Shown here: piece after piece, positions 4,188-59,010 of the stretch
Layout: every line of letters begins with the position of its first letter
Position numbering within the stretch: the stretch's first letter is position 1
Assembly (NCBI RefSeq): GCF_022846255.1
Contig: NZ_AP025682.1
Source: Escherichia coli
GTDB taxonomy: Bacteria > Pseudomonadota > Gammaproteobacteria > Enterobacterales > Enterobacteriaceae
Length of the DNA: 64,000 nt
Direction: 5' to 3' (one strand)
Program-made: the position numbers and the translations under genes
The notes under the pieces: model-generated
Told to the model about the DNA's origin: nothing
The model's database searches: none
Seen by the model: only the letters and a program-made list of their open reading frames with translations

Positions 4188-5423
4188 ATGACGGAACAAG
4201 AAAAAACCTCCGCCGTGGTTGAAGAGACCAGGGAGGCCGTGGACACCACGTCACAACCTGTCGCAACAGAAAAAAAGAGTAAGAACAATACCGCATTGAT
4301 TCTCAGCGCGGTGGCTATCGCTATTGCTCTGGCGGCGGGCGTCGGTTTGTATGGCTGGGGTAAACAACAGGCCGTCAATCAGACTGCCACCAGCGATGCC
4401 CTGGCTAACCAACTTACGGCACTGCAAAAAGCCCAGGAGAGCCAAAAAGCCGAGCTGGAAGGCATTATCAAGCAACAAGCTGTACAGCTTGAGCAGGCGA
4501 ATCGTCAGCAAGAAACGCTGGCAAAACAGCTGGATGAAGTCCAACAAAAGGTCGCCACCATTTCCGGCAGCGATGCTAAAACCTGGCTGCTGGCCCAGGC
4601 CGATTTTCTGGTGAAACTCGCCGGACGGAAGCTGTGGAGCGATCAGGACGTCACGACCGCTGCAGCGTTGCTGAAAAGTGCAGACGCCAGCCTGGCGGAT
4701 ATGAATGACCCGAGTCTGATTACCGTTCGCCGGGCAATTACCGATGATATCGCCAGCCTTTCTGCGGTATCGCAGGTGGATTATGACGGTATCATCCTTA
4801 AGCTTAATCAGCTTTCAAATCAGGTAGATAATCTGCGTCTGGCCGATAATGACAGCGATGGTTCGCCGATGGATTCCGACGGTGAAGAGCTTTCCAGTTC
4901 CATCAGCGAATGGCGTATCAATCTGCAAAAAAGCTGGCAGAACTTTATGGACAACTTCATTACGATTCGCCGTCGTGATGACACCGCCGTACCGCTGTTA
5001 GCGCCAAATCAGGATATCTATCTGCGCGAAAATATTCGCTCTCGCCTGCTGGTCGCAGCACAAGCTGTACCGCGTCACCAGGAAGAGACTTATCGCCAAG
5101 CGCTGGAGAACGTCTCCACCTGGGTACGTGCTTACTACGATACTGATGATGCCACCACCAAAGCGTTCCTCGACGAGGTGGACCAGTTAAGCCAGCAAAA
5201 TATCTCGATGGATCTTCCGGAAACCCTGCAAAGCCAGGCGATGCTGGAAAAATTGATGCAGACCCGCGTGCGTAACCTGCTGGCACAACCGGCAGCAGGG
5301 ACAACGGAAGCTAAACCTGCACCTGCACCTGCACCTGCACCTGCACCTGCACCTGCACCTGCACCTGCACCTGCACCTGCACCGCAAGCTGATGCTCCGG
5401 CAGCCGCGCCGCAAGGAGAATAA
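4188..5423 (+). CDS. hemX: HemX (uroporphyrinogen-III methyltransferase homolog / membrane protein) with C-terminal (Pro-Ala)11 tract
   Basis: 411-aa ORF following hemD; N-terminal TM segment, coiled-coil-like Q/A-rich region, C-terminal PAPAPA repeat. Confidence 0.9.
5316..5381 (+). repeat. Perfect tandem hexanucleotide repeat (CCTGCA)x11 inside hemX 3' end
   Basis: Directly visible: cctgca repeated 11 times, in frame, encoding (PA)11. Confidence 0.97.
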
Positions 5424-6622: not shown

Positions 6623-6633
6623 CTCTTTCTCAC

Positions 6634-6660
6634 CCGGAGGCAAGCACCTCCGGGGCCTTT
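6634..6660 (+). terminator. Hairpin downstream of hemY (ccggagg-caagca-cctccgg), putative hem operon terminator
   Basis: Perfect 7-bp stem 12 nt after hemY stop followed by T-rich stretch (ctttct). Confidence 0.5.
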
Positions 6661-6669
6661 CTGATATAT

Positions 6670-6876
6670 AAAAAAACGCCTGCTCTTATTACGGAGCAGG
6701 CGTTAAAACAGGTCTGTATGACAACAAGTGGGTGCTTCACTCAACGTTGTGTCCATGGTGTCTGATGAGGCATAAGCGACATCTGTCAGTGGACGATAAG
6801 CACCGTAAACGGCTCTGCGTCATTCCGGAGTTTATGAGGCACTAAGGCGAACATAAGAGATGGAATGAGCATCTAC
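6670..6876 (-). ncRNA. glmZ: Small RNA GlmZ (207 nt) with intrinsic terminator at its 3' end
   Basis: Minus strand reads GUAGAUGCUCAUUCCAUCUCUUAUGUUCGCC...AACGCCUGCUCCGUAAUAAGAGCAGGCGUUUUUUU, matching recalled GlmZ; located between hemY and aslA as in E. coli. Confidence 0.85.
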
Positions 6877-6882
6877 TCGTTT

Positions 6883-6888
6883 ATTATG
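6883..6888 (-). promoter_or_regulatory. Putative glmZ -10 element (TGgCATAAT extended -10) just upstream of the GlmZ 5' end
   Basis: Minus strand ...tctgtggcataataaacg immediately 5' of GUAGAUG; spacing ~6 nt to the RNA 5' end. Confidence 0.5.
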
Positions 6889-7300
6889 CCACAGAGAACC
6901 GGGAAATAACATCCCTTAACACTTGTTATGAGATAATTCTGTAATCCTCTTTGCTTCCTGAGTAATAACTTCCTGAGTGAATATTTCTCCTGCGCACAAT
7001 TCTACACATATATATAATGAATAATAAAAGTCATTCAATTAATAACATATATATTAATTGCCGTTAAAACTAAAAACAGCATCAATAATCAACGCGATAT
7101 AACATCACCGCCTTACATATCACCTGCGCCAGAGGTAGGATTGCAAACGCTCTCCTGATTTTCCAATTCATTTTCTGGATAAATAAATAATTTATTTTTA
7201 TCACTATTATTTATGCAATCATCCTGTCAGGGAGAGGGATCTCAATTATCAATGCTTAATTACGTCATCATTTTGACGACATGAAACCGGAGCATTTTGC

Positions 7301-8956
7301 ATGGAATTTTCGTTTTCACCCAAACTTCTTGTTGTTGCTGTCGCCGCAGCTCTTCCTCTCATAGCCAGCGCAGCAGATACCCCGTCAACCGCCACCGCAC
7401 GCAAAGGCTTTGCCGGATACGATCACCCAAACCAGTATCTGGTTAAACCGGCGACCACTATTGCCGACAACATGATGCCGGTGATGCAGCATCCTGCACA
7501 AGACAAAGAAACCCAGCAGAAACTGGCGGAACTTGAGAAAAAAACCGGTAAGAAACCGAACGTGGTTGTTTTCTTGCTGGATGATGTGGGCTGGATGGAC
7601 GTTGGCTTTAACGGCGGCGGCGTGGCGGTGGGTAACCCTACACCAGATATCGACGCCGTTGCCAGCCAGGGGCTGATTTTAACTTCGGCGTATTCTCAAC
7701 CGAGTTCTTCCCCAACCCGCGCCACGATTCTCACCGGACAATACTCCATCCACCACGGCATTCTGATGCCGCCAATGTACGGGCAACCGGGCGGTCTGCA
7801 AGGGTTAACCACGCTGCCGCAGTTGCTGCACGATCAGGGCTACGTCACTCAGGCCATCGGGAAATGGCATATGGGGGAAAACAAAGAGTCGCAGCCGCAG
7901 AACGTTGGCTTTGATGATTTCCGCGGCTTTAACTCGGTATCCGATATGTATACCGAATGGCGTGATGTTCACGTCAACCCGGAAGTCGCCCTGAGCCCGG
8001 ATCGTTCTGAATACATCCAAAAACTGCCGTTCAGCAAAGATGACGTTCATGCCGTGCGCGGCGGTGAACAGGAAGCCATTGCCGACATTACGCCGAAATA
8101 TATGGAAGACCTGGATCAACGCTGGATGGAATATGGCGTTAAGTTCCTCGACAAGATGGCGAAGAGTGATAAGCCTTTCTTCCTCTATTACGGCACTCGC
8201 GGCTGTCACTTCGATAACTACCCAAATGCGAAATATGCGGGTAGCTCTCCGGCGCGCACCTCTTACGGCGACTGCATGGTGGAGATGAACGATATCTTCG
8301 CCAATCTGTATAAAGCACTGGAGAAAAACGGTCAGCTTGATAACACGCTGATTGTGTTCACCTCTGATAACGGTCCGGAAGCCGAAGTTCCGCCGCACGG
8401 TCGCACGCCGTTCCGCGGTGCGAAAGGTTCTACATGGGAAGGCGGCGTTCGTGTGCCAACCTTCGTTTACTGGAAAGGCATGATCCAACCGCGTAAATCT
8501 GACGGCATTGTCGATCTGGCGGATCTCTTCCCTACGGCACTGGATCTGGCGGGGCACCCTGGGGCGAAAGTAGCGAATTTAGTACCGAAAACCACCTTTA
8601 TCGATGGTGTGGACCAGACATCTTTCTTCCTGGGAACAAATGGTCAGTCTAACCGTAAGGCCGAGCACTACTTCCTCAACGGCAAACTTTCTGCTGTGCG
8701 TATGGATGAGTTCAAGTATCACGTCCTGATCCAGCAACCGTACGCGTATACCCAGAGCGGGTATCAGGGTGGATTCACCGGCACAGTAATGCAAACGGCG
8801 GGATCGTCGGTGTTTAACCTGTACACCGATCCGCAGGAAAGCGACTCCATCGGCGTGCGCCATATCCCAATGGGTGTACCGCTACAGACCGAAATGCACG
8901 CGTATATGGAGATCCTGAAAAAATATCCACCACGCGCGCAGATTAAATCTGATTAA
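7301..8956 (+). CDS. aslA: Arylsulfatase-family protein AslA (periplasmic sulfatase, signal peptide)
   Basis: 551-aa ORF; N-terminal signal sequence; sulfatase motifs; matches AslA. Confidence 0.93.
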
Positions 8957-8983
8957 GCCGGCGCTATCGCTGAGATCTACCTT

Positions 8984-9012
8984 TGCCGGATGCGATGCTG
9001 ACGCATCCGGCA
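8984..9012. repeat. REP (repetitive extragenic palindromic) element
   Basis: tgccggatgcgatgctgacgcatccggca, the canonical GCCGGATGCG...CGCATCCGGC palindromic unit. Confidence 0.65.
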
Positions 9013-9022
9013 ATCAACCGCA

Positions 9023-9050
9023 GGCGGCCACAAAATGGCCGCTTTTTTAC
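9023..9050 (+). terminator. Intrinsic terminator downstream of aslA (hairpin ggcggcc-acaaaat-ggccgc + T6)
   Basis: GC stem followed by tttttt; overlaps aslB stop codon on the other strand. Confidence 0.6.
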
Positions 9051-10282
9051 TTATTCACCACCAGCAAATGCGCCTGCATAATGTCGCTGGCCGGACGACC
9101 GTGCGCCAGTAAATCAACCATTGCTTTAAGATATGGCGGTAGATGGCGGAAATAACGCTGATACCCGGCACACAAATAATTCAGCCCGGGTTTGCCGCTG
9201 GCATCGAGCATAAAGCGGTGTTTCGGGCAGCCTCCCCAGCACGCTTTTAACACGTTGCAACTGCGACACTGTGCCGGTAACTGCTTGAATTTATCTTCAC
9301 CAAATGCCTGCTGTTGCGGGGAATCAATCATTTCTGCAATCATCTGCTGAAGCATATTCCCTAGTCGATACTGCGGATAAACATAGTGATCGCAGGCATA
9401 AACGTCACCGTTGTGCTCAACAATCACCGAGCGCCCACAGGTTGGCTGATGATGGCAAACCGCGCCCGGTGCGCCGACAAAATTGGCGAACGCCCATTCG
9501 ATATTCATTACGAAAATCTTGCCGACGTCGCGCTTAATCCAGTGGTCGAAAATCGCCACCAGAAACTCACCGAACTCTTGCGGGCACACCGACCATTCCG
9601 TCAGTTCGCCCTGAATATCGCCGGGAGCATGTAGCTTAAGTCCAGCATGAGCAGCCGTTTCATCAGCCAGGCGCTCGACCACCGGAATAAACTGGATGAA
9701 CTCAACACCTGCATCACACAGAAAATCATAGACTTGCAAAGGTTGTAACGCACTGGTGCGATTGACGCAGACCAGCACGTTATAGTCGACATGATGTTTT
9801 TGCAGGAGCGTCAGAGCACGCATCACCAGCTTATGCGTTGGTCTGCCACCTTTGGTCACGCGATATTGATTGTGGATCTCAGCCGGACCATCCAGCGATA
9901 ACCCTACAAGAAAATGATTTTCTGCCAGAAATGCACACCATTCGTCATCGAGCAGCACGCCGTTAGTCTGGAAGCTATTACTTATCTTCCTGCCAGCACC
10001 ATATTTCGCCTGTAGCGCCACGGCACGGCGGTAAAAATCCAGCCCGAGTAACGTTGGTTCGCCGCCCTGCCAGGTAAAAGCCACTTCGTTTTGGGTTTCG
10101 CTGGCAGCGATATAGTGACGGACATACGCTTCCAGCGTGTCATCGTCCATATGCGTGACTGGCTTTTCGTGGTAAAGGGATTGTTTTTCGAGATAAAAAC
10201 AGTAGTCACAGTTCAGATTACAATCAGAACCGCTCGGTTTCGCCATCACATGAAAAGCACGCGTTGGAACCTGTTGCTGCAT
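9047..10282 (-). CDS. aslB: Anaerobic sulfatase-maturating enzyme homolog (radical SAM, CxxxCxxC)
   Basis: ORF 9047..10312; start taken at MQQQVPTRAFHVMAKPSGSDCNLNCDYCFY (411 aa), radical-SAM Cys motif visible; alternative upstream ATG at 10312. Confidence 0.88.
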   Translation of the reverse strand: MQQQVPTRAFHVMAKPSGSDCNLNCDYCFYLEKQSLYHEKPVTHMDDDTLEAYVRHYIAASETQNEVAFTWQGGEPTLLGLDFYRRAVALQAKYGAGRKISNSFQTNGVLLDDEWCAFLAENHFLVGLSLDGPAEIHNQYRVTKGGRPTHKLVMRALTLLQKHHVDYNVLVCVNRTSALQPLQVYDFLCDAGVEFIQFIPVVERLADETAAHAGLKLHAPGDIQGELTEWSVCPQEFGEFLVAIFDHWIKRDVGKIFVMNIEWAFANFVGAPGAVCHHQPTCGRSVIVEHNGDVYACDHYVYPQYRLGNMLQQMIAEMIDSPQQQAFGEDKFKQLPAQCRSCNVLKACWGGCPKHRFMLDASGKPGLNYLCAGYQRYFRHLPPYLKAMVDLLAHGRPASDIMQAHLLVVNK

Positions 10283-30539: not shown

Positions 30540-32561
30540 TTATTTCCCTCGTTTTGCCGCCATCATAGCTTTCAGATTCGCCAGATGGCTTTGCCCTTTC
30601 TGCATCCGTTCTTCGGCGCTGACCACTTTGCGCTCCTGTTCCCAAATCAGATCATCCTGCGGCAGCTCCAGCAAAAAGCGGCTCGGCTCCGGGCGCACCA
30701 GTTCGCCGTACTGACGGCGTTCTTTACACAGCGTAAAGGTCAATTCCTTCTGGGCGCGGGTAATGCCGACATAGGCCAGCCGCCGCTCCTCATCGATATT
30801 ATCTTCATCGATGCTGCTCTGGTGCGGCAAAAACCCCTCTTCCATACCGACCATGTAGACATAAGGAAACTCCAGCCCTTTCGACGCGTGGAGAGTCATC
30901 AGTTGCACCTGATCCAGCTCTTCTTCACTCTCACCACGCTCCATCATGTCGCGCAAAGTAAAGCGCGTCACCACCTGGGTGAGCGTCATCGGCTCATCCA
31001 GTTCGCTGCCTTCCAGCATCTCCGTCATCCAGCTAAACAGTTGGTTGACGTTCTTCATGCGCATTTCGGCGGCTTTCGGGCTGGGCGATGTTTCGTACAG
31101 CCAGGATTCATAATCCATGCCGTGGATCAGATCACGCACCGCGGCAATCGGCTCCCGCTCCGCCAGACGCTGGATTTCTGCCAACCAGTGAGTGAAGCGG
31201 GTCAATGCTTCATAACCACGTCCGCTAAGCGTCTGACTCAGGCCCATATCAAAGCTGGCGGTAAACATGCTTTTATTGCGCGTCATCGCCCATTCACCCA
31301 ACTTTTTCAGCGTCGCCGGGCCAATCTCTCGCTTCGGCGTGTTAACGATACGCAGGAACGCACTATCATCGTCCGGGTTAGTCAGCACGCGCAGATAAGC
31401 CAGCAAGTCCTTGATTTCAGGACGAGAGAAAAACGACGTACCACCAGAAATTTTGTACGGGATGCGGTTTTGCATCAGGAATTTTTCAAACACCCGCGAC
31501 TGATGGTTACCGCGATAAAGAATGGCGTAATCTTTGTACTGCGTTTTATTGACGAAGTGATGGGCGATCAGCTCGCCGGTGACGCGCTCGGCTTCATGTT
31601 CCTCGTTATTCGCGCTTAAAACTTTTAGCTCTGTGCCGTAACCCAGTTCGGAGAACAGACGCTTTTCAAAGACGTGCGGATTATTGGCGATCAGGATGTT
31701 CGCCGCTTTCAAAATACGTCCGGAAGAGCGGTAGTTCTGCTCAAGCTTAATCACCTTCAGCGCCGGAAAATCCTGACTCAGCAGCACCAGGTTTTGCGGA
31801 CGTGCGCCGCGCCAGGAGTAGATCGACTGGTCATCGTCACCCACCACGGTAAAGCGCGCGCGGCTGCCCACCAGCAGTTTCACCAGCTCATACTGGCTGG
31901 TGTTGGTGTCCTGATATTCGTCCACCAGCAGGTAGCGAATTTTGTTCTGCCAGCGCTCGCGGACTTCTTCATTGCGTTGCAGAAGTAGCGTCGGCAATAA
32001 AATCAGATCATCGAAGTCGAGAACGTTACAGGCTTTCAGGTGTGCATCATACAGCCCATAACAATGGGCAAAAATACGGTCCCGCTCGCCCTTTGCCTCT
32101 GCCGCCGCCTGCGCCGGTGTTTTGAGATCGTTCTTCCAGTTGGAGATGGTCGAAATTAGCTGTTGCAGGAGAACTTTGTCATCTTCAATCAGCCCCTCGG
32201 TCAACTCTTTAAGCAAAGCAAGCTGATCGGTATCGTCAAACAGCGAAAAGTTAGCCTTCATCCCCAGCGCCGCATACTCGCGTTTGATGATATCCAGCCC
32301 CAGCGTGTGGAAGGTGGAGATCATCAGCCCACGCGCCTCTTTGCGCCCCAGCGTCTGCCCGACACGCTCTTTCATCTCGCGTGCCGCCTTATTGGTAAAG
32401 GTCACCGCCGCGATATGTCGCGCCTGATAACCGCAACCGCGGATCAGATGGGCGATTTTATTGGTGATAACACGAGTTTTACCGGAACCCGCGCCCGCCA
32501 GCACCAGGCAGGGGCCGGTAACGAATTCGACAGCTTGTTGTTGGCCGGGGTTTAGACGCAT
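30540..32561 (-). CDS. rep: ATP-dependent DNA helicase Rep (SF1)
   Basis: ORF 30540..32576; start at [29 protein letters not shown] (673 aa); Walker A present. Confidence 0.95.
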
Positions 32562-32599
32562 AGGAAAATCGCTCAATGAAAGTCGGGAGGGGAAAATAA

Positions 32600-32929
<330 letters not shown>

Positions 32930-32974: not shown

Positions 32975-34450
32975 TTAACCCGCAACAGCAATACGTTTCA
33001 TATCCGTCATATAGCCGCGCAGTTTCTTACCTACCTGCTCAATCGCATGGCTGCGAATCGCTTCATTTACATCACGCAGCTGCGCGTTATCTACCGCACC
33101 TTCCGGAATAGCTTTACCCAGGTCGCCCGGTTGCAGCTCTGCCATAAACGGTTTCAGCAGCGGCACACAAGCGTAAGAGAACAGATAGTTACCGTACTCG
33201 GCAGTATCGGAGATAACCACGTTCATTTCGTACAGACGCTTACGGGCGATGGTGTTGGCAATCAGCGGCAGTTCGTGCAGTGATTCATAGTAAGCAGATT
33301 CTTCGATGATGCCGGAATCAACCATGGTTTCAAACGCCAACTCAACGCCTGCTTTTACCATCGCGATCATCAGTACGCCTTTATCGAAGTACTCCTGTTC
33401 GCCGATTTTGCCTTCATACTGCGGCGCGGTTTCGAATGCGGTTTTGCCAGTCTCTTCACGCCAGGTCAGCAGTTTCTTATCGTCGTTGGCCCAGTCAGCC
33501 ATCATGCCGGAGGAGAATTCGCCGGAGATGATGTCGTCCATATGTTTCTGGAACAGCGGCGCCATGATCTCTTTCAGTTGCTCAGAGAGCGCGTAAGCAC
33601 GCAGTTTCGCCGGGTTAGAAAGACGGTCCATCATCAGGGTGATGCCGCCCTGTTTCAGCGCTTCGGTGATGGTTTCCCAACCGAACTGAATCAGTTTTTC
33701 TGCGTATGCCGGGTCGGTGCCTTCTTCCACCAGCTTGTCGAAGCACAGCAGAGAACCAGCTTGCAACATACCGCACAGGATGGTTTGCTCGCCCATCAGG
33801 TCAGATTTCACTTCCGCAACGAAAGAGGATTCCAGCACGCCCGCACGGTGACCGCCGGTTGCAGCCGCCCATGCTTTAGCGATCGCCATGCCTTCGCCTT
33901 TCGGATCGTTTTCCGGGTGAACGGCAATCAGCGTCGGTACGCCGAATCCACGTTTGTACTCTTCACGTACTTCGGTGCCAGGGCATTTCGGCGCAACCAT
34001 TACGACGGTGATGTCTTTACGGATCTGCTCGCCCACTTCGACGATGTTGAAACCGTGTGAGTAACCCAGCGCCGCGCCGTCTTTCATCAGTGGCTGTACG
34101 GTGCGCACTACATCAGAGTGCTGCTTGTCCGGCGTCAGGTTAACCACCAGATCCGCCTGCGGGATCAGTTCTTCGTAAGTACCCACTTTAAAACCATTTT
34201 CGGTTGCTTTACGCCAGGATGCGCGCTTCTCGGCAATCGCTTCTTTACGCAGAGCGTAAGAAATATCCAGACCAGAATCACGCATGTTCAGGCCCTGGTT
34301 CAGCCCCTGTGCGCCACAGCCGACGATGACTACTTTTTTACCCTGAAGGTAGCTCGCGCCATCGGCGAATTCATCGCGCCCCATAAAGCGACATTTGCCC
34401 AGCTGTGCCAGCTGCTGGCGCAGATTCAGTGTATTGAAGTAGTTAGCCAT
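32975..34450 (-). CDS. ilvC: Ketol-acid reductoisomerase (NADP+)
   Basis: ORF 32975..34672; start at [23 protein letters not shown] (491 aa). Confidence 0.95.
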
Positions 34451-34599
34451 GGTGATTCCTCGTGATGTTGTGCTTCTTATTGTTCGGTTCGCGTTTGCGA
34501 GATTGAATTCACTATATGACAGGAAATTTATTGCGGAAATTGATATATTCACAACGTCACATTGCAATTTTTGCAACGTCAACATTGAGGGCTGCGCCA
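34451..34599. promoter_or_regulatory. ilvC-ilvY divergent promoter/operator region (IlvY operator sites expected)
   Basis: 149-bp gap between divergent ilvC ATG and proposed ilvY start; by analogy with the known IlvY-regulated ilvC promoter. Confidence 0.45.
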
Positions 34600-35490
34600 T
34601 TGGATTTACGCGATCTGAAAACCTTCCTGCATCTGGCGGAAAGCCGCCATTTTGGCCGCAGCGCGCGGGCAATGCACGTTAGCCCGTCTACGCTTTCGCG
34701 ACAAATACAGCGCCTGGAAGACGATCTCGGTCAGCCGCTGTTTGTGCGTGATAACCGCACGGTAACGCTGACGGAAGCGGGCGAAGAACTGCGCGTTTTC
34801 GCCCAGCAAACGCTGTTGCAGTATCAGCAACTGCGCCACACCATCGATCAGCAAGGGCCGTCGCTCTCTGGCGAATTACATATCTTCTGCTCGGTGACCG
34901 CTGCCTACAGCCATCTGCCGCCGATTCTCGATCGCTTCCGCGCGGAACACCCGTCGGTGGAGATTAAACTCACGACTGGTGATGCGGCAGATGCGATGGA
35001 AAAGGTCGTCACTGGCGAAGCGGATCTGGCGATTGCCGGGAAACCGGAGACTCTGCCCGGCGCAGTGGCATTTTCGATGCTGGAGAATCTGGCAGTAGTG
35101 CTGATTGCCCCCGCGCTACCCTGCCCGGTGCGTAACCAAGTTTCGGCAGAGAAGCCGGACTGGTCTACAGTGCCGTTTATCATGGCCGATCAGGGACCGG
35201 TGCGCCGGCGCATTGAACTGTGGTTTCGACGCAACAAAATCAGCAACCCGATGATTTACGCCACGGTCGGCGGGCATGAAGCGATGGTGTCGATGGTAGC
35301 GCTCGGCTGTGGCGTGGCATTGTTGCCGGAAGTGGTGCTGGAAAACAGCCCGGAACCGGTGCGTAACCGCGTGATGATTTTAGAGCGCAGTGATGAAAAA
35401 ACGCCGTTTGAGCTGGGCGTGTGCGTACAAAAAAAGCGGCTTCATGAGCCGCTGATTGAGGCGTTCTGGAAGATTTTGCCGAACCACTAA
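34600..35490 (+). CDS. ilvY: LysR-family transcriptional activator of ilvC
   Basis: ORF 34516..35490; recalled IlvY begins [19 protein letters not shown], which aligns with a TTG at 34600; N-terminal HTH; start uncertain (in-frame ATG at 34516). Confidence 0.8.
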
Positions 35491-37031
35491 CCCGCCAAAA
35501 AGAACCTGAACGCCGGGTTATTGGTTTCGTCGTGGCAATCGTAGCCCAGTTCATTCAGCCGGGTTTCAAAATCCGGTTCATGATCGCCAAGCTCGAACGC
35601 CGCCAGTACGCGCCCGTAGTCGGTGCCATGGCTGCGATAGTGGAACAAAGAAATGTTCCAGTGCGTACCCAGCGTGTTGAGGAAGCGCAACAGCGCGCCC
35701 GGTGATTCCGGGAATTCGAAGCTGTAGAGGCGTTCCTGCAACGGATGCGATGGACGCCCGCCAACCATATAGCGCACATGTAGCTTCGCCATTTCGTCGT
35801 CGGAGAGATCAACCACGCTGTAGCCGCCGTCGTTGAGCATCTGCAAAATTTCTTTGCGCTCTTCGAGACCGCGGCTCAGGCGCACGCCGACAAAAATGCA
35901 GGCGTTTTTGGCATCAGCAAAGCGGTAGTTGAACTCGGTGACCGAGCGCCCACCAAGTAACTGGCAGAATTTGAGGAAGCTGCCCTTTTCTTCCGGAATG
36001 GTCACCGCCAGTAACGCTTCACGCTGTTCGCCCAGTTCGCAGCGTTCCGAGACGTAGCGCAGACCGTGAAAGTTCACGTTGGCACCGGAAAGAATATGCG
36101 CCAGCCGTTCACCGCGAATGTTGTGTTGGGCGATGTATTTTTTCATCCCCGCCAGCGCCAGCGCGCCGGAGGGTTCCGCCACCGCGCGCACATCTTCGAA
36201 CAGGTCTTTCATCGCCGCACATATGGCATCGCTATCGACGGTGATGATGTCGTCGAGATACTCCTGGCATAAACGGAAGGTTTCATCGCCGATGCGTTTT
36301 ACCGCGACGCCTTCGGCGAACAGCCCCACACGCGGCAGATCAACAGGATGACCGGCATCCAGCGCCGCTTTCAGACAGGCGGAGTCTTCCGCTTCCACGG
36401 CGATCACTTTGATTTGCGGCATCAGTTGTTTGATCAACACCGCCACGCCCGCCGCCAGGCCGCCGCCGCCGACCGGCACAAATACGCGGTCGAGATGAGC
36501 ATCCTGCTGGAGTAGTTCCAGCGCCAGCGTCCCTTGCCCGGCGATCACCATCGGATGGTCGAACGGCGGCACCCAGGTGAAGCCCTGCTGCTGCGACAGT
36601 TCAATCGCTTTGGCTTTCGCTTCATCAAAATTCGCGCCATGAAGCAGCACTTCGCCGCCAAAGCCGCGCACCGCATCAACTTTGATGTCGGCGGTGGCGG
36701 TTGGCATGACGATCAGTGCCTTCACGCCTAACCGTGCGGAAGAAAACGCGACGCCCTGCGCGTGGTTACCCGCAGAAGCGGTAATCACGCCGTGCGCTTT
36801 TTGTTCTTCCGTCAGGCCCGCCATCATGGCGTATGCGCCACGAAGCTTAAAGCTGTGCACTGGCTGGCGATCTTCGCGCTTCACCAGAATCACGTTATCA
36901 AGACGCGACGACAGTTTTTCCATTTTCTGTAGCGGCGTGACCTGCGCCGCTTCGTAGACCGGCGCGCGCAGCACCGCTCTTAAATATTCGGCACCTTCAG
37001 GGGCACCGGACAGGGGTTGTGAGTCTGCCAT
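35487..37031 (-). CDS. ilvA: Threonine deaminase (biosynthetic threonine dehydratase)
   Basis: ORF 35487..37034; start at second Met MADSQPLSGAPEGAEYLRAVL (514 aa); stop codon overlaps ilvY stop. Confidence 0.95.
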   Translation of the reverse strand: MADSQPLSGAPEGAEYLRAVLRAPVYEAAQVTPLQKMEKLSSRLDNVILVKREDRQPVHSFKLRGAYAMMAGLTEEQKAHGVITASAGNHAQGVAFSSARLGVKALIVMPTATADIKVDAVRGFGGEVLLHGANFDEAKAKAIELSQQQGFTWVPPFDHPMVIAGQGTLALELLQQDAHLDRVFVPVGGGGLAAGVAVLIKQLMPQIKVIAVEAEDSACLKAALDAGHPVDLPRVGLFAEGVAVKRIGDETFRLCQEYLDDIITVDSDAICAAMKDLFEDVRAVAEPSGALALAGMKKYIAQHNIRGERLAHILSGANVNFHGLRYVSERCELGEQREALLAVTIPEEKGSFLKFCQLLGGRSVTEFNYRFADAKNACIFVGVRLSRGLEERKEILQMLNDGGYSVVDLSDDEMAKLHVRYMVGGRPSHPLQERLYSFEFPESPGALLRFLNTLGTHWNISLFHYRSHGTDYGRVLAAFELGDHEPDFETRLNELGYDCHDETNNPAFRFFLAG

Positions 37032-37033
37032 CA

Positions 37034-51748: not shown

Positions 51749-53176
51749 ATGAGCGATAAAAAGAAGCGCAGTATGGCGGGTTTGCCGTGGATCGCGGCGA
51801 TGGCCTTCTTCATGCAGGCACTTGATGCCACTATTCTGAATACCGCCTTACCCGCAATCGCTCATAGCCTTAATCGTTCTCCTCTCGCGATGCAATCAGC
51901 CATCATCAGTTATACGCTGACGGTGGCGATGCTTATTCCGGTAAGCGGATGGCTAGCCGATCGCTTCGGTACGCGTCGCATATTTACCCTTGCCGTGAGT
52001 CTGTTCACGTTGGGTTCTCTGGCCTGCGCACTTTCTAACTCGCTACCACAGCTGGTTGTCTTCCGGGTTATTCAGGGGATAGGCGGCGCAATGATGATGC
52101 CTGTTGCTCGGCTGGCCTTACTGCGCGCTTATCCTCGTAATGAGCTTCTTCCTGTATTGAATTTTGTCGCCATGCCGGGTCTGGTGGGGCCAATTTTAGG
52201 CCCCGTTCTTGGCGGCGTGCTGGTCACCTGGGCAACCTGGCACTGGATATTTTTAATCAATATCCCCATAGGTATTGCGGGCCTTCTTTACGCGCACAAA
52301 CATATGCCCAATTTCACCACCGCACGACGCAGATTCGATACCACTGGCTTTTTGCTGTTTGGCCTCAGCCTTGTTCTCTTCTCAAGCGGAATAGAGCTAT
52401 TCGGGGAAAAGATTGTCGCCAGCTGGATTGCCTTGACGGTAATTGTCACCAGCATCGGGTTACTGCTTCTCTATATTCTCCATGCGCGACGCACGCCAAA
52501 CCCATTAATTTCATTAGATTTATTTAAAACCCGCACTTTCTCGATCGGTATCGTAGGCAATATTGCAACCCGTCTGGGGACCGGCTGTGTACCGTTCCTT
52601 ATGCCATTGATGTTACAGGTAGGATTTGGGTATCAGGCGTTTATTGCTGGCTGTATGATGGCACCGACAGCGTTAGGTTCCATTATTGCAAAATCGATGG
52701 TTACCCAAGTCTTACGTCGTCTGGGCTATCGCCATACGTTAGTGGGGATCACGGTGATTATAGGGCTAATGATCGCTCAGTTCTCTTTGCAATCACCAGC
52801 AATGGCGATATGGATGCTGATCTTGCCGTTGTTTATATTAGGGATGGCTATGTCGACACAATTTACCGCGATGAATACCATCACACTTGCCGATCTGACC
52901 GATGACAACGCCAGCAGCGGTAACAGTGTTCTGGCGGTCACGCAGCAACTGTCGATCAGTTTAGGCGTTGCTGTAAGTGCGGCAGTCCTTCGCGTTTACG
53001 AAGGGATGGAAGGCACAACGACAGTCGAACAGTTCCACTATACGTTTATCACGATGGGCATTATTACTGTTGCTTCAGCAGCAATGTTCATGCTACTGAA
53101 AACAACCGATGGTAATAATTTGATCAAAAGACAGCGTAAATCTAAGCCGAACCACGCTCCATCAGAATCGGAGTAA
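51749..53176 (+). CDS. hsrA: MFS transporter HsrA (YieO), 14-TM drug-efflux-like
   Basis: 475-aa hydrophobic ORF; matches HsrA; 3' end overlaps rbsR 3' end. Confidence 0.9.
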
Positions 53177-54134
53177 GTTGTAATCGTTGTTGCTGTAGGG
53201 CCGGCTGGGTTATCCGATGGATGAGTACATCAATCGCCAGCTCCCCCAGTTCATCTTTCGGTTGGTGGATAGTTGTTAATGGTGGCGTCATAAAGCTTGC
53301 CAGTTCGATATCGTCATAGCCAATCACCGCGATATCCTGCGGAACCTGTAACTCTGCCTGATATAACGCCTGGTAAACGCCAACAGCCATAGCGTCATTT
53401 CCGGTAAAGACAGCCTGAGGACGCAGCGGATGTGATAACAGTTGGCGCATGGCGTCAAACCCGCCGTTAAATTCAAAATCACCTGTGACTTCATAGCCAT
53501 CAGGAATGTTGAGACCCGCACGTTTCATCGCCGCCCGATAACCTTCCAACCGCAGGCGCGCCGGAGTTTTATCCAGCGGACCGGTAATACAGGCAATACG
53601 GGTATGACCTTTATCGATCAGATATTGCGTTGCTAAGTCTCCGCCCAGCAACGAGTTATCCTGAATAAGATCGCTGTCGCCATCGAACGGAGCCCAGTCC
53701 ATCATCACGGTAGGCACTGTCGGATAACGTTGCATGATTTCACGCGAAGGCTGATGCGTTTCGGTGCACAGTAACAGCAAGCCATCAACGCGTTTTTGCA
53801 TCAGCGTTTCCAGATTACGATTCATCCGCTGTTCATCGCCTTCGGTATTGCAAAGGACAAGACTATAACCGCGTTCGAAGCAGCTGCGTTCAACGCCACG
53901 CACCAGTTCTGAATAGAAAGGATTGGTACTGGCAGTGATCAACATGCCAATGGTATGTGTTTGATTGAGTTTGAGGCTACGCGCCAGAGCTGATGGCGCG
54001 TAATTGAGTTCTTTAATCGCCGCTTCAACTTTGGCTGTAATCGCTTCACTGACGAAGCGATCTTTATTGATAACGTGAGAAACTGTTGAGGTAGAAACGC
54101 CCGCCAGGCGGGCAACATCTTTCATTGTAGCCAA
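53142..54134 (-). CDS. rbsR: Ribose operon repressor (LacI family)
   Basis: 330-aa [32 protein letters not shown]... (HTH); last gene of rbs operon. Confidence 0.95.
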
Positions 54135-54137
54135 GCG

Positions 54138-55067
54138 TCACCTCTGCCTGTCTAAAAATGCGTCGATCTCTTCACGCCACGGTACGGAAGGTTGTGCGCC
54201 TTTACGTGTTACGGCAATCGCAGCGGCTGCATGGGCAAAACGAATCGCCTCTGGCAATGTTTTTTCTTCCAGCAACGCCGTGATTAACGCGCCGTTAAAG
54301 GTATCTCCGGCAGCAATGGTATCGACAGCCTGCACCCGGAATCCAGGAACGCGCTGACCTTCACCATTCACGCTAGCCCATACACCACGACTTCCTAAAG
54401 TAATCAGTACAGTACGGATACCTTTTTCATGCAGTACCTGCGCCGCCTTCGCTGCATCTTCATCATTTTCAACACGAATACCGGTGAGCTTTTCTGCTTC
54501 CGTTTCGTTTGGCGTAATAATGTCCACCAGCGCCAGAAGTTCGTCAGGAAGTTCACGAGCCGGAGCCGGGTTAAGCGCAACGATAGTCTTATTTTGATGG
54601 GCGATTTTCGCCGCTGCCATCACACTTTCGAGTGGTGATTCCAGCTGCATTAATAATGCCGACGCGTTGGCAATACGCTCACGTTGCGCTTCCACCAGCG
54701 CCGGGGAAAGGGCAGCATTAGCGCCGGCATGAATACCGATGACATTCTCACCTTCGCCATTAACAAAAATCAGCGCCACACCTGTTGATTCGCCTTTGAT
54801 CACGCTGACCGGAGAAATATCGATGTTATCAGTGGCGAGCTGCTGACGTACGCTCTCGCCAATGCTGTCATCACCCGTACAGGCAATAAACGCGATATTC
54901 GCACCGCTACGCCCAGCAGCCACAGCTTGATTCGCGCCTTTGCCGCCAAATGCAACCTGATAGTGGTTACCGGTTACGGTTTCGCCTGGAGTAGGAAAAG
55001 ATTGAAGATTAAGAATGTGGTCAGCATTAATGCTGCCAAGAACAACGAGGCTGCCTGCGTTTTGCAT
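54138..55067 (-). CDS. rbsK: Ribokinase
   Basis: ORF 54138..55094; start at MQNAGSLVVLGSINADHILN (309 aa). Confidence 0.94.
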   Translation of the reverse strand: MQNAGSLVVLGSINADHILNLQSFPTPGETVTGNHYQVAFGGKGANQAVAAGRSGANIAFIACTGDDSIGESVRQQLATDNIDISPVSVIKGESTGVALIFVNGEGENVIGIHAGANAALSPALVEAQRERIANASALLMQLESPLESVMAAAKIAHQNKTIVALNPAPARELPDELLALVDIITPNETEAEKLTGIRVENDEDAAKAAQVLHEKGIRTVLITLGSRGVWASVNGEGQRVPGFRVQAVDTIAAGDTFNGALITALLEEKTLPEAIRFAHAAAAIAVTRKGAQPSVPWREEIDAFLDRQR

Positions 55068-55192
55068 ATTCGGGATGTCCATAAAATGCGCCACCGTGTT
55101 AGGGTGGCGCGTGCCCTGCTTTTCTTTATATTACACGTTCATCTGTCGATGCCGTATTTATGTCACCATCAGGTCATACAACCTGATTAAAA

Positions 55193-56083
55193 CTACTGCT
55201 TAACAACCAGTTTCAGATCAACCGGATACTTAGCCTGAACTTTCTCGCCTTTCAGTACTTTATCTGCGGTTTCGACGCCTTTCGCGCCAATCTGATCGGG
55301 TAGCTGAGCGATAGTCGCTGCTAGTTTGCCATCATTCACCGCTTTTTCGCCATCCGGTGTACCGTCAAATCCGACGACCATCACATCCGATTTACCGGCA
55401 GTTTGCAGTGCGCGCAGCGCGCCCAGCGCCATTTCATCATTCTGCGCAAATACAGCCTGAACATCCGGATGAGCGGTCAACAGGTTCTGCATTACGTTCA
55501 AACCTTTGGTACGATCAAAATCTGCTGGCTGGCTGGCAAGAACATTAAACTTGTGAGCAGCAACAGCCTGCTGGAAGCCTTCGCCACGTTCACGGGCTGC
55601 GGATGTACCGGCAATGCCTTGCAGCTCGATAACTTTGGCACCTTCACCCGCTTTCTTCGCGATGTAATCACCGGCGATTTTGCCGCCCAGTACGTTATCA
55701 GAAGCAATGTGGCTCACCACTTCACCTTTCGTTGCCTAGCGGTCAAGAGTGATAACCGGGATGTTCGCCTGGTTAGCCATCTTCACAGCATTACCCACTG
55801 CGTCGGAGTCGGTCGGGTTAATCAGCAGAATTTTGGTGCCGCGAACGGTTAAGTCCTGCACGTTCGCCAGCTCTTTCGCCGGGTTGTTCTGGGAGTCCAG
55901 CACCACCAGGTTATAACCAAGTTTATCCGCCTCTTTCTGCGCGCCATCTTTCAGCGATACAAAGAACGGGTTGTTAAGCGTGGAGACCACCAGCGCGATG
56001 GTGTCTTTTGCCATCGCATTCGCACTGACGGTGGCGCTTAGCGCAACAGCGGAAACCAGGGTAGCCAGTTTTTTCATGTTCAT
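55193..56083 (-). pseudogene. rbsB: Ribose ABC transporter periplasmic binding protein RbsB, interrupted by an in-frame TAG (amber) codon at plus-strand 55736..55738
   Basis: Two same-frame ORFs (55736..56089 and 55193..55720) together give RbsB; minus strand reads ...[23 protein letters not shown]... where recalled RbsB has Gln (CAG). Confidence 0.85.
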
Positions 56084-56107: not shown

Positions 56108-57073
56108 TTACTGCTTTTTGTTGTCTACCAGCACCGCCAGCAAAATCACCACCGCTTTGACGATCATCTGGTAATAGGAGGAAACACCTAACAAATTCAA
56201 TCCATTATTAAGGAAGCCAAGAATTAATGCGCCGATCAACGTCCCAACAATGCGACCTTTTCCGCCCGCCAGACTCGTACCGCCCAGAACCACCGCAGCA
56301 ATAGCATCCAGCTCATAGCCAGTCCCCGCCGTGGGTTGTGCGGAGGAGAGACGCGCCACTTCAATGATCCCGGCCAGCGATGCCAGCAGACCACAAAGAG
56401 AATAGACGATGATTTTGATTTTATTGACGTTGATACCAGAAAGACGCGTTGCCGCTTCGTTGCCGCCCAGCGCGTAGATGTAACGCCCCAGACGCGTGTG
56501 ATGCAGCATGTACCAGGCCGCGAGGAAGACAATTCCCATGATCCAGACTGGCGTCGGTACGCCCAGCGGACGACCAATACCAAACCAGCCAAACAGATCG
56601 GCGTTCTCAGTAAAGCCAGTATTCACTGGGCTACCGTTGGTATAAACCATGGTCACGCCGCGCAGTAAAAGCATCATAACCAGCGTAGCGATAAAGGCCT
56701 GGACGCGACCTTTCGCTACAATCACCCCGGTTACCGCACCAATTGCGGCACCTAACGCGAGAGCGGCAGCGACAGCCACCAGCGCATTGACTTCAATGCC
56801 AACGATAGATGCAGCAACTGCGCCAGTCAGCGCCAACAGAGAACCTACCGACAAGTCGATGCCCGACGTCAGGATCACCAGCGTCATCCCGACTGCCATA
56901 ATGGCGTTCACCGAGGTTTGCTGGAGAATATTGAATAAGTTATTGATGGTGAAAAAGTTCGGACTTAACGTCGAGACAATCGCGATCAGCACCAGCAGAG
57001 CGATAAGCGATTTCTGCTCCATCAGCCACGCTTTCGTGAAATAACGGCGACCAGAGACAGTCTGGGTTGTCAT
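56108..57073 (-). CDS. rbsC: Ribose ABC transporter permease
   Basis: 321-aa multi-TM ORF; matches RbsC. Confidence 0.95.
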   Translation of the reverse strand: MTTQTVSGRRYFTKAWLMEQKSLIALLVLIAIVSTLSPNFFTINNLFNILQQTSVNAIMAVGMTLVILTSGIDLSVGSLLALTGAVAASIVGIEVNALVAVAAALALGAAIGAVTGVIVAKGRVQAFIATLVMMLLLRGVTMVYTNGSPVNTGFTENADLFGWFGIGRPLGVPTPVWIMGIVFLAAWYMLHHTRLGRYIYALGGNEAATRLSGINVNKIKIIVYSLCGLLASLAGIIEVARLSSAQPTAGTGYELDAIAAVVLGGTSLAGGKGRIVGTLIGALILGFLNNGLNLLGVSSYYQMIVKAVVILLAVLVDNKKQ

Positions 57074-57077
57074 TTTT

Positions 57078-58583
57078 TTACTCCTGATTCACGCGATTAA
57101 GCTTGCCCACAGCGGCAGCCATTAACACTTCCTGGGTGGCCTGCTCACGAGTAAATTCCCCGCTGAGATGCCCTTCATGCATGACGATGATGCGATCGCT
57201 CATGCCTAATACTTCTGGCATCTCCGATGACACCAGAATGATGCTCAAGCCATCGGCTTTGAACTGGTTAATCAGTTGATAGATCTCTTTTTTCGCGCCG
57301 ACATCTACGCCACGGGTAGGCTCATCGAGGATCAACACTTTAGGGCGTGTCATTAGACCACGGGCAATCGCTACTTTTTGCTGATTGCCACCGGAAAGCA
57401 GACCAATTGCCTGTTCCATCGACGGCGTTTTCACATTAAACAGACGAATGAAATCACTCACTGCCTGCTGTTCATCGGCATGCTTCAAACTGCCGCCAGC
57501 GCGGCTGAAGTAGCGCAGCGCTGTCAGCGACATGTTCTCTTTTACTGACATGCCCAGCACCAAACCGTCGCGTTTACGGTCTTCGGAGATATACACAATG
57601 CCGTTTGCCAGGCCATCCTGTGGTGAACGGGTAACGACTTCATGCCCATCCAGGGTGACGTAACCGCTGGTGCGCGGCAGTGCGCCGTAGAGCACTTTCA
57701 TCAGTTCGGTACGACCTGCGCCCATCAAACCAGAGACGCCAAGGATTTCGCCTTTGCGTAAAGTAAAAGAGACATCGTTAACGCCAGGTCCGCAGAGATT
57801 ATCGACTTTCAGGCGGATATCTCCCGGCGCTTTGTCCAGGTGCGGATATTGATCTTCCAGCTTGCGGCCCACCATCATCTCAATCAGCGAATCTTCGGTC
57901 AGTGATGCTACTTCACGCTCAGCAATAAATTGCCCATCACGAAAAACGGTAACGTCATCGCAAATCTCGAAGATTTCTTTCATGCGGTGGGAGATATAGA
58001 CAATACCGCGGCCTTGCGATTTCAGCTCGCGGATGACGCGGAACAGGGATTCGGTTTCGGTATCGGTCAGTGCATCGGTCGGTTCATCCATAATGATGAC
58101 TTTCGACTCAAAGCTCAGCACTTTGGCAATTTCAACCATTTGCTGGTCACCGATGGAAAGATCGCCCACCAGCTTGTCGCTTTTAAAGCGCAGGTTAAGT
58201 TTAGCCAGCAATTTATCCGCTTCGGCATACATGGTTTTCCAGTCAATTTTGCCAAAGCGATTAACAAACTCACGACCGAGGAAAATGTTTTCGGCAATGG
58301 TCAACTGCGGGATCAGGTTCAGTTCCTGATGGATAATCCCAATCCCGGCTTCCTGGGAAGATTTCGGCCCGGTAAATGTCGTTTCTTTCCCCAGCCATAA
58401 AAGCGTGCCGGCATCGCGAGTATAGATACCAGTAAGCACTTTCATCATGGTGGATTTACCCGCGCCGTTTTCGCCCACCAGCGCCATCACGCGGCCCGGA
58501 TAGACATTTAATGCTGCGCCCGAGAGGGCTTTTACGCCCGGGAAGGCTTTATCGATGCCTTTAAGCTGAAGTAATGCTTCCAT
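57078..58583 (-). CDS. rbsA: Ribose ABC transporter ATP-binding protein (tandem ABC domains)
   Basis: 501-aa ORF with two Walker A motifs ([18 protein letters not shown]). Confidence 0.95.
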
Positions 58584-58590
58584 GACGGCC

Positions 58591-59010
58591 TCAGAACGTC
58601 ACGCCAGCACAGAGAATGATATTCGCATACGGAGAACATTCTCCGCTGCGAATTACCGCCTGACTTTCTGCGGTTTGTTGTTTGAATTGTTCATGCGTGG
58701 TGTAACGAATTTCAATGGTATTTCCCTGGTGTTTTTGCAGCTGCTCAAGGTGAGTGAGCAACGTTTCGTGGAGTTGCGGATTATGTTGTTTGATCTCCTC
58801 CGCGATAATGGCAGCCTCGACCTGCATTTCATTTGTGACGACGTCCAGCACCTGCATAAAAGAAGGTACACCCTGGGTTAATGCCATATCGATACGCGTT
58901 GTACTTTTGGGGATGGGTAAACCAGCATCACACACCACCAGCGTATCGGTATGTCCCAGACGGGAGATCACCGATGAAATATCAGAATTAAGAACGGTGC
59001 CTTTTTTCAT
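58591..59010 (-). CDS. rbsD: D-ribose pyranase
   Basis: ORF 58591..59022; start at [24 protein letters not shown] (139 aa); SD ggagaaa upstream. Confidence 0.93.

What the first reader, a model, noticed from the sequence alone, without database searches (positions are those of the whole stretch)
55736..55738. In-frame amber stop codon splits rbsB in an otherwise intact ribose operon
The ribose-binding protein gene is open for its full length except for a single TAG at about codon 116 of 296, where I recall RbsB having Gln (CAG). A single C-to-T change on the coding strand would explain it. rbsD, rbsA, rbsC, rbsK and rbsR are all intact, so this looks like a recent point lesion rather than operon decay. 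It predicts loss of high-affinity ribose uptake and ribose chemotaxis, unless it is a sequencing error or is read through in an amber-suppressor (supE/supF) host. A nonsense codon mid-operon could also exert polarity on rbsK and rbsR.
Basis: partly seen in the sequence, partly recalled or inferred. Interest (0 to 1): 0.6.

Follow-up and report, generated by a model that had tools for sequence, protein, structure and literature searches.

The report
rbsB amber stop at Dcm hotspot
The ribose-binding protein gene of this E. coli is knocked out by a real single C-to-T change that falls on a methylated cytosine, a classic mutation hotspot; the same change has arisen independently in many unrelated strains, so this is an ordinary though instructive pseudogene.

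Summary
Codon 116 of rbsB (window 56083..55193, minus strand) is TAG at 55738..55736, where K-12 and strain GN06156 read CAG; none of 5,387 complete E. coli genomes carries the TAG-containing 61-mer. All other ~50 genes in the window, including rbsD, A, C, K and R, are intact, so this is an isolated point lesion.

First, the ancestral context CGC-CAG-GCA contains CCAGG, a Dcm site, and the mutated base is its inner, 5-methylated cytosine (CCAGG>CTAGG). This is the chemistry behind the classical lacI amber hotspots. Second, the same mutation occurs on 8 different rbsB haplotypes in public read-set assemblies. Two carriers differ from wild-type complete genomes by this one base in 11,194 yet are 136 SNPs apart, so it recurs independently.

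Of the 17 Gln codons that one transition can turn into a stop, only Q105 and Q116 lie on Dcm inner cytosines. Both are the most frequently hit. Q105am is the allele found in assemblies labelled Shigella flexneri. The excess over nine control codons is at least 5-fold, but the controls also recur.

An identical 11.2 kb contig assembled independently from a read set argues against sequencing error. Loss of ribose uptake and taxis is predicted, not tested. Verdict: real, ordinary, a new example of a known mechanism.

The parts
55736..55738 (-). Amber codon TAG at codon 116 of rbsB (ancestral CAG, Gln)
55735..55739 (-). CTAGG, the mutated form of a Dcm site (ancestral CCAGG). The changed base, 55738, is the inner, methylated cytosine
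   Evidence: K-12 and all wild-type loci read CCAGG here
55193..56083 (-). rbsB, ribose ABC transporter periplasmic binding protein, 296 codons, now a pseudogene
   Evidence: 98.8% identical to K-12 rbsB, no gaps
55736..56083 (-). N-terminal remnant ORF: 115 aa (signal peptide plus part of the N-domain), then the TAG
   Evidence: annotated in GenBank as BDH35648.1, hypothetical protein TRECRb50_44640
55193..55717 (-). C-terminal remnant ORF of 174 aa starting at a GTG preceded by the SD-like AAAGGTGA. A possible translational restart; the product would lack a signal peptide
   Evidence: (gene callers call it at locus 6367-6891). That it restarts is inference
55768..55772 (-). Second in-frame Dcm site, CCAGG at codon Q105 (CAG = 55771..55769). 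Intact here; mutated to TAG in assemblies labelled Shigella flexneri and in at least 3 other haplotypes
55083..55316 (-). RbsZ sRNA region (3' end of rbsB plus 3'UTR), 232/234 identical to K-12, with terminator hairpin at 55110..55088
58591..59010 (-). rbsD, intact
57078..58583 (-). rbsA, intact
56108..57073 (-). rbsC, intact
54138..55067 (-). rbsK, intact
53142..54134 (-). rbsR, intact

Best explanation
This is a genuine, evolutionarily recent loss-of-function allele of rbsB. A C-to-T transition hit the inner cytosine of a Dcm methylation site (CCAGG to CTAGG). That cytosine is 5-methylated by Dcm, and its spontaneous deamination gives thymine. If very-short-patch repair misses the resulting T:G mismatch, the CAG (Gln116) codon becomes TAG.

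Translation then stops after 115 residues, so no functional periplasmic ribose-binding protein is made. The strain is predicted to lack high-affinity ribose uptake through RbsAC and ribose taxis through Trg, while the rest of the operon stays intact.

Shown: the stop codon, its Dcm context, its independent recurrence in other lineages, and its excess over equivalent non-Dcm codons. Inferred: that the cytosine was actually methylated in this strain, that deamination and not a replication error caused this particular event, and the phenotype.
For: The TAG and its CCAGG ancestry are shown. The lesion is isolated in an intact operon and an intact 64 kb neighbourhood.

The same nt346 C>T was present in all 10 loci shown, on 8 distinct rbsB haplotypes. 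L011 and L012 each differ from a wild-type complete genome only at nt346 over 11,194 bp, yet differ from each other by 136 SNPs. L005 differs from strain A22 at 3 positions, including nt346.

Only 2 of the 17 transition-to-stop Gln codons in rbsB are Dcm inner cytosines, and those two are the most often hit. Real interior stops among the ~24 longest contigs read per allele were: Q116 at least 17 of 23, Q105 25 of 25, and nine controls 0-9 each with mean 3.2. Binomial P is 1e-6 on contigs and 0.006 on haplotypes.

Literature: lacI amber hotspots at the second C of CCAGG were about 10-fold over-represented (Coulondre 1978, as summarised in PMC12606429). The Dcm inner C has an ~8-fold higher C>T rate in natural E. 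coli and Salmonella genomes (Cherry 2018, as summarised in PMC9520237).
Against: Nonsense alleles at non-Dcm Gln codons also recur on several haplotypes (Q49: 5, Q155: 5, Q172: 4). Recurrence alone therefore does not prove a hotspot, and the excess is moderate.

The counts are contigs from a capped, non-random read-out (about 24 blocks per query). They are not phylogenetically independent events, and the Q116 count is censored.

Comparing the window with K-12 shows no excess of transitions at Dcm inner positions (2 of 408 sites, against 3.4% of other C/G positions). That test is confounded by codon constraints and VSP repair.

dcm and vsr are outside the window, so the strain's Dcm status was not checked. 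No phenotype data exist.
Confidence: 0.75

Rival explanations
1. This is an ordinary replication-error C>T transition unrelated to methylation. It is seen in many lineages only because hundreds of thousands of E. coli read sets were sampled, and because rbsB loss is tolerated or mildly favoured.
For: Non-Dcm Gln codons also show independent nonsense alleles on up to 5 haplotypes. There is no excess of Dcm-site transitions between the window and K-12. Loss of rbs is beneficial in glucose-limited laboratory evolution (PMC4173774).
Against: The two Dcm codons rank first and second of 11 tested. Q116 is at least 5-fold above the control mean although its count is censored. This matches published ~8-10-fold Dcm hotspot factors (PMC9520237, PMC12606429). 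Selection for loss would raise all nonsense sites equally and cannot explain the site bias.
Confidence: 0.17
2. This is a sequencing or assembly artefact. Dcm motifs are a known source of systematic nanopore basecalling errors (my own knowledge, not a tool result), so a CCAGG could be miscalled as CTAGG and the gene would really be intact.
For: The mutated base lies in a Dcm motif. The platform used for the source assembly is unknown.
Against: Logan's independent de novo assembly of read set DRR322657 gives a 33 kb contig identical to the window over 11,210 bases, including the TAG. The window shows no general corruption of Dcm sites: only 2 transitions at 408 Dcm inner positions versus K-12. 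The same TAG appears in assemblies of at least 9 further read sets in 7 other rbsB haplotype backgrounds.
Confidence: 0.04
3. The TAG is read through, by a supE/supF-type suppressor tRNA or by programmed readthrough, so functional RbsB is still made.
For: UAG is the leakiest stop codon in E. coli, and near-cognate Gln insertion would restore the wild-type residue (general knowledge). Most of the genome could not be examined.
Against: All 7 tRNA genes in the window have wild-type anticodons, including trpT, the source of Su7. The TAG 61-mer is absent from 5,387 complete genomes, so it is not a conserved recoding site. Suppressor alleles are rare in natural isolates (general knowledge). Basal readthrough would give at most a small fraction of normal RbsB.
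Confidence: 0.03
4. The TAG arose once and spread among lineages by homologous recombination.
For: E. coli recombines frequently, and the window itself is a mosaic relative to K-12 (93-99% identity by gene).
Against: Variable sites within about 100 bp on either side of nt346 (nt 249, 288, 381, 396, 399, 411) differ among carriers, giving at least 5 local haplotypes. Carriers L011 and L012 are identical to wild-type genomes at every other base over 11 kb. Transfer would therefore need a conversion tract containing only the one base.
Confidence: 0.01

Closest known systems
lacI amber hotspots at Dcm sites (Coulondre, Miller, Farabaugh & Gilbert 1978; summarised in PMC12606429)
   Same: Same chemistry and the same sequence: C>T at the second C of CCAGG converts an in-frame CAG to TAG. 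A few Dcm sites dominate the nonsense spectrum by roughly 10-fold, comparable to the excess of at least 5-fold seen here.
   Different: That was a laboratory mutant collection in one K-12 gene. Here the events are natural and are seen in the chromosomal rbsB of unrelated wild strains. Methylation was not verified here.
Methylation-induced hypermutation in natural bacterial populations (Cherry 2018, J Bacteriol 200:e00371-18; not held, cited through PMC9520237)
   Same: [quoted passage not shown] The rbsB nt346 and nt313 recurrences are specific instances of that pattern.
   Different: That study is a genome-wide statistic. I could not check whether it mentions rbsB or nonsense outcomes.
The rbsB pseudogene of Shigella flexneri (104-aa product, e.g. 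AIL38180.1)
   Same: Same gene and same mechanism class: TAG at an in-frame CCAGG (Q105, 11 codons upstream), with the same 174-aa downstream remnant ORF.
   Different: A different codon. The S. flexneri allele is widespread (2,168 collection blocks) and sits in a decaying operon: rbsA is split in L014, L015 and L017, and rbsA, rbsC and rbsB are split further in L016. In the window everything else is intact.
Loss of the rbs operon in the Lenski long-term evolution experiment (Cooper et al. 2001; PMC4173774)
   Same: Recurrent, parallel inactivation of ribose utilisation driven by a locally raised mutation rate, with a small fitness benefit in the laboratory.
   Different: There the mechanism is IS150-mediated deletion of the operon in E. 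coli B. Here it is a point mutation at a methylated cytosine, there is no IS nearby, and no fitness benefit has been shown.

Membership tests
RbsB, ribose ABC transporter periplasmic binding protein | Orthologous sequence in the conserved rbsDACBKR operon context | tested here: met
   98.8% nucleotide identity to K-12 rbsB with no gaps, lying between rbsC and rbsK. Both remnant products hit PF13407/PF00532.
Unitary pseudogene by nonsense mutation | A premature in-frame stop where orthologues have a sense codon | tested here: met
   TAG at codon 116 of 296. K-12 and GN06156 have CAG, and 0 of 5,387 complete genomes carry the TAG 61-mer.
Unitary pseudogene by nonsense mutation | Loss of the gene's function (no ribose-binding protein, no high-affinity uptake or taxis) | not testable with these tools
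   Needs growth, chemotaxis or protein assays. The 115-aa product lacks more than half of the two-domain fold, so loss is inferred.
Dcm (CCWGG) 5-methylcytosine deamination hotspot mutation | The mutated base is the inner C of a CCWGG site in the ancestral sequence | tested here: met
   Wild type CGC-CAG-GCA contains CCAGG at gene nt 345-349, and nt346 is the inner C.
Dcm (CCWGG) 5-methylcytosine deamination hotspot mutation | The change is C>T (CCAGG>CTAGG) | tested here: met
Dcm (CCWGG) 5-methylcytosine deamination hotspot mutation | The same change recurs independently and more often than at comparable non-Dcm cytosines | tested here: met
   8 haplotypes, with single-base tip differences from wild-type genomes. 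Q116 at least 17 and Q105 25 real-stop contigs, against a mean of 3.2 at nine control Gln codons. The caveat is that sampling was capped and not phylogenetically corrected, and the controls also recur.
Dcm (CCWGG) 5-methylcytosine deamination hotspot mutation | The host encodes an active Dcm and the site is methylated | not testable with these tools
   dcm-vsr lies outside the 64 kb window, and no methylation data are available. That Dcm is near-universal in natural E. coli rests on my own knowledge (Militello et al. 2012) and was not verified here.
Suppressed or recoded amber codon | A suppressor tRNA with a CUA anticodon, or a conserved TAG with readthrough signals | tested here: not met
   All 7 tRNAs in the window have wild-type anticodons, and the TAG is not conserved. 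The rest of the genome could not be tested.
Shigella-style reductive genome decay | Multiple pseudogenes and IS insertions in the neighbourhood | tested here: not met
   rbsB is the only disrupted gene of ~50. There are no IS elements and no frameshifts, and ilvG is intact.

The most novel reading that the evidence does not exclude
In-frame Dcm sites in rbsB (Q105 and Q116) might act as a quasi-reversible, mutation-biased off switch for ribose sensing and uptake. Deamination of 5mC switches the gene off at a raised rate. Because Vsr repair converts T:G mismatches in CTAGG back to CCAGG, recombination or replication errors could switch it back on preferentially. The repeated appearance of these alleles, including the one widespread in S. 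flexneri, would then reflect niche-specific selection acting on a biased mutation supply and not neutral decay.
Probability: 0.06. Interest if true: 0.55.

Novelty: new member of a known kind. Interest (0 to 1): 0.3.

Why it matters
For this genome, rbsB should be annotated as a pseudogene and the strain is expected to be defective in ribose taxis and high-affinity ribose uptake.

More generally, it is a clean natural replicate of the 1978 lacI result. The two codons of rbsB where a Dcm-methylated cytosine can create a stop are the ones most often hit in wild E. coli, and one of them accounts for the rbsB pseudogene seen in Shigella flexneri assemblies. This shows that part of the 'parallel gene loss' seen across lineages can be predicted from methylation motifs alone, so such homoplasies should not be read automatically as evidence of selection or recombination.

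It also gives a practical caution. Amber codons at CCWGG sites deserve a check against nanopore methylation artefacts.

Tried and rejected
1. Shigella or general genome decay. The best complete-genome match was only 99.1%, which suggested it, but a gene-by-gene comparison with K-12 found no other lesion and no IS element. Rejected.

2. Raw database counts of the exact truncated products. These did not discriminate, because most control 'products' are genes cut off by contig ends. I had to inspect the DNA locus by locus.

3. A general test for Dcm-site hypermutability, window versus K-12 over 63.9 kb. There is no excess: 2 transitions at 408 inner positions, against 3.4% elsewhere. I treat this as uninformative and not contradictory. 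At ~2% divergence most differences are synonymous, and few Dcm inner positions are synonymous sites. VSP repair also biases CTWGG back to CCWGG.

4. A single origin plus recombination. Rejected on local haplotypes and on the single-base differences from wild-type genomes.

5. Searching complete RefSeq E. coli for the allele found 0 of 5,387. The source genome itself is not in that collection (best match 99.1%).

6. Literature. There is no paper on 'TRECRb50'. Cherry 2018 is not held, so it is cited only through reviews. I found no paper describing rbsB amber alleles.

7. Suppressor tRNAs could be checked only within the window.

Full report
**Observation.** The minus strand of the window reads ...ACT CTT GAC CGC TAG GCA ACG AAA GGT..., with the TAG at 55738..55736. 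Translating 56083..55193 gives a 296-codon protein with a single internal stop at codon 116. The gene is rbsB. It is 98.8% identical to K-12 rbsB, with 11 mismatches and no gaps, and it lies between rbsC and rbsK in a standard kup-rbsDACBKR-hsrA-yieP-rrnC arrangement. K-12 and strain GN06156 have CAG at codon 116. A 61-base query centred on the codon matched 5,387 complete RefSeq E. coli genomes, every one with at least one mismatch, so none carries this TAG-containing 61-mer.

**Neighbourhood.** I compared every K-12 CDS in the syntenic region with the window. Of about 50 genes, from cyaA through hem, asl, wec/rff, rho, ilv and rbs to ravA/viaA, only rbsB has an internal stop. There are no frameshifts and no IS elements. 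ilvG, which is frameshifted in K-12, is intact. This is an isolated lesion, not Shigella-style regional decay. The best match among 5,426 complete E. coli genomes is 99.1% over 13 kb, so the source genome is not in that collection.

**Is the base call real, and where does the window come from?** The exact 115-aa truncated product is on record. GenBank has it as BDH35648.1, 'hypothetical protein TRECRb50_44640 [Escherichia coli]', on a 4.94 Mb contig. A Logan de novo assembly of read set DRR322657 gives a 33 kb contig that is identical to the window over all 11,210 bases compared, including the TAG. This is most likely the same isolate or clone. It means an assembly made independently from reads reproduces the base.

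Dcm motifs are a known source of systematic nanopore basecalling errors (my own knowledge), so I considered an artefact seriously. Three things argue against it. The independent contig has the length and repeat-bounded ends typical of accurate short reads. The window shows no general corruption of Dcm sites: only 2 transitions at 408 Dcm inner positions versus K-12. And the same TAG occurs in assemblies of many other read sets (below). I could not see the sequencing platform or the pile-up.

**The same mutation in unrelated backgrounds.** All 10 loci returned for the 115-aa product have TAG at codon 116. Nine of them are only 98.4-98.8% identical to the window over 11 kb, which is as distant as K-12. 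Across the 10 loci there are 8 distinct rbsB haplotypes. The polymorphic sites closest to nt346 (nt 249, 288, 381, 396, 399, 411) define at least 5 different local haplotypes.

For three carriers I found the nearest wild-type complete genome:
- L011 differs from strain 104 at exactly one base in 11,194, which is nt346 C>T.
- L012 differs from strain Z1323CEC0015 at exactly that same single base.
- L005 differs from strain A22 at three bases, including nt346.
- L011 and L012 differ from each other by 136 SNPs.

These are therefore independent, recent tip mutations. The allele was not inherited from one ancestor or spread by recombination.

**Why this nucleotide?** The ancestral context CGC-CAG-GCA contains CCAGG at gene nt 345-349, and nt346 is its inner cytosine. 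Dcm methylates the second cytosine of CCWGG, and vsr, which lies in the same operon, repairs the T:G mismatches produced when 5-methylcytosine deaminates (PMC4924334, PMC9520237). CCAGG>CTAGG with CAG in frame is the event behind the classical lacI amber hotspots. There, 2 of 26 possible nonsense sites dominated by about 10-fold, and both were the second C of CCAGG (Coulondre et al. 1978, as summarised in PMC12606429). In thousands of natural E. coli and Salmonella genomes the Dcm inner C has an ~8-fold higher C>T rate (Cherry 2018, as summarised in PMC9520237; the original is not held).

**Testing the hotspot against controls.** rbsB has 17 codons, all Gln, that a single transition can turn into a stop. 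Only Q105 and Q116 place that C at a Dcm inner position. I looked up the exact truncated product for 11 of them. Raw counts did not discriminate, because most control 'products' are genes cut by contig ends, so I inspected the DNA. Real interior stops among the roughly 24 longest contigs read per product were:

| Codon | Dcm site? | Real-stop contigs | Haplotypes | Note |
|---|---|---|---|---|
| Q116 | yes | at least 17 of 23 | 8 | every place shown was real; display capped at 10; 101 blocks in all |
| Q105 | yes | 25 of 25 | 4 | 2,168 blocks, mostly S. flexneri |
| Q49 | no | 8 | 5 | |
| Q65 | no | 0 | 0 | product not in the collection |
| Q76 | no | 1 | 1 | |
| Q155 | no | 9 | 5 | |
| Q171 | no | 3 | 2 | |
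| Q172 | no | 4 | 4 | |
| Q185 | no | 2 | 2 | |
| Q199 | no | 1 | 1 | |
| Q209 | no | 1 | 1 | |

The control mean is 3.2 contigs and 2.3 haplotypes. The censored Q116 count is at least 5.3 times the control mean. Under equal rates P is 1e-6 on contigs and 0.006 on haplotypes. The two Dcm codons rank first and second (Mann-Whitney P = 0.02 on contigs, 0.075 on haplotypes).

This agrees with the published 8-10-fold factor, but it is not a clean measurement. So rbsB nonsense alleles in general are not rare in E. coli populations. A direct test for excess Dcm-site transitions between the window and K-12 was negative. I regard that test as confounded by codon constraints and by VSP repair, which favours CCWGG. 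The window's strong CTAG depletion, 27 observed against about 248 expected, fits that kind of bias.

**The Shigella connection.** The 104-aa product from Q105>TAG at the other Dcm site (AAC-CAG-GCG > AAC-TAG-GCG) is the RbsB fragment annotated in Shigella flexneri (e.g. AIL38180.1). It is present in 2,168 collection blocks. There the operon shows further decay: rbsA is split in L014, L015 and L017, and rbsA, rbsC and rbsB are split further in L016. The same allele also occurs on other haplotypes, including a 5.36 Mb chromosome with an intact rbsA (L018). So both in-frame Dcm sites of rbsB have produced natural amber alleles, and one of them has become widespread in a host-restricted pathogen.

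**Consequences (inferred).** The 115-aa product keeps the signal peptide and part of the N-terminal lobe but lacks most of the two-domain binding fold. RbsB is the ligand-binding partner of both the RbsAC transporter and the Trg chemoreceptor (PMC5557919, and general knowledge). High-affinity ribose uptake and ribose taxis should therefore be lost. Slow growth on high ribose through low-affinity routes may remain (my own knowledge; untested).

Six codons after the TAG, the sequence AAAGGTGAAGTGGTG offers a Shine-Dalgarno-like element followed by GTG. Gene callers consistently call a 174-aa ORF from there. If it is used, the product would be cytoplasmic and non-functional. Continued translation could, however, limit Rho-dependent polarity on rbsK and rbsR.

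The RbsZ sRNA region at the 3' end of rbsB is 232/234 identical to K-12, with its terminator intact. The long RbsZ form has its own promoter, while RbsZ-S is processed from the rbsDACB transcript (bioRxiv 10.1101/2023.08.28.555190). Only the processed form might therefore be reduced by polarity. S. flexneri 301 expresses a ~230-nt sRNA between rbsB and rbsK (PMC3071730), but I did not verify that strain's rbsB allele.

No suppressor tRNA is encoded in the window; all 7 tRNA genes, including trpT, have wild-type anticodons. The rest of the genome could not be checked.

**Selection.** Loss of rbs is mildly beneficial in glucose-limited laboratory evolution and there is also driven by a local mutational hotspot, IS150-mediated deletion (PMC4173774). 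Nothing here shows selection in nature. A site bias towards Dcm cytosines is a mutational signature and cannot be produced by selection for loss alone.

**Verdict.** What is there is an ordinary unitary pseudogene. Its most likely origin is deamination of a Dcm-methylated cytosine. It is a new, well-documented instance of a mechanism known since 1978 and already shown genome-wide in natural populations. It is of modest interest as an illustration and for annotation, not as a new kind of biology.

Noticed in passing
window 40158-41804 (-): ilvG is intact (548 codons, no internal stop), unlike the frameshifted ilvG pseudogene of K-12. This is the usual wild-type state.
   Followed up: partly
window 32561-32648: The rep-ppiC intergenic region is only about 86 bp. 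About 780 bp that K-12 has here, including the yifN pseudogene remnant, is absent (no BLAST hit for yifN).
   Followed up: partly
window 32975-38884 and 7301-10282: Mosaic divergence from K-12. ilvD-ilvA-ilvY-ilvC are 94-96% identical and aslA/aslB 93-94%, against 97-99% for most neighbouring genes. This suggests recombinant segments of different ancestry.
   Followed up: no
window 4188-5423 (+): The hemX ORF is 411 codons against 393 in K-12, and the alignment breaks into two HSPs near the 3' end. This is probably a length polymorphism in an internal repeat.
   Followed up: no
whole window: CTAG is about 9-fold under-represented (27 observed, ~248 expected from base composition). Most of the 12 CTAGG/CCTAG sites are in the rrn operon (46012-50280). 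The rbsB amber site at 55735-55739 is one of the few elsewhere.
   Followed up: partly
L014-L018 (Shigella flexneri and one E. coli-like chromosome), rbsB codon 105: The rbsB pseudogene in S. flexneri assemblies is an amber mutation at the other in-frame Dcm site (AAC-CAG-GCG > AAC-TAG-GCG). It is present in 2,168 collection blocks and on at least 4 haplotypes.
   Followed up: yes
L019-L022, L049-L055, L082-L088 (rbsB codons 172, 155, 49): Nonsense alleles at non-Dcm Gln codons of rbsB also occur on 4-5 different haplotypes each, so rbsB is inactivated repeatedly in natural E. coli. I did not test whether rbsB is hit more often than other genes.
   Followed up: partly
window 55506-55508 (rbsB codon 192): Codon 192 is ACC (Thr) in the window and ACC or ACT in the 11 other E. 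coli loci aligned here. K-12 alone has ATT (Ile), so the K-12 reference carries the minority allele.
   Followed up: no
window 45332-45407 (-): trpT, downstream of rrnC, has the wild-type CCA anticodon, so it is not an Su7-type amber suppressor.
   Followed up: yes
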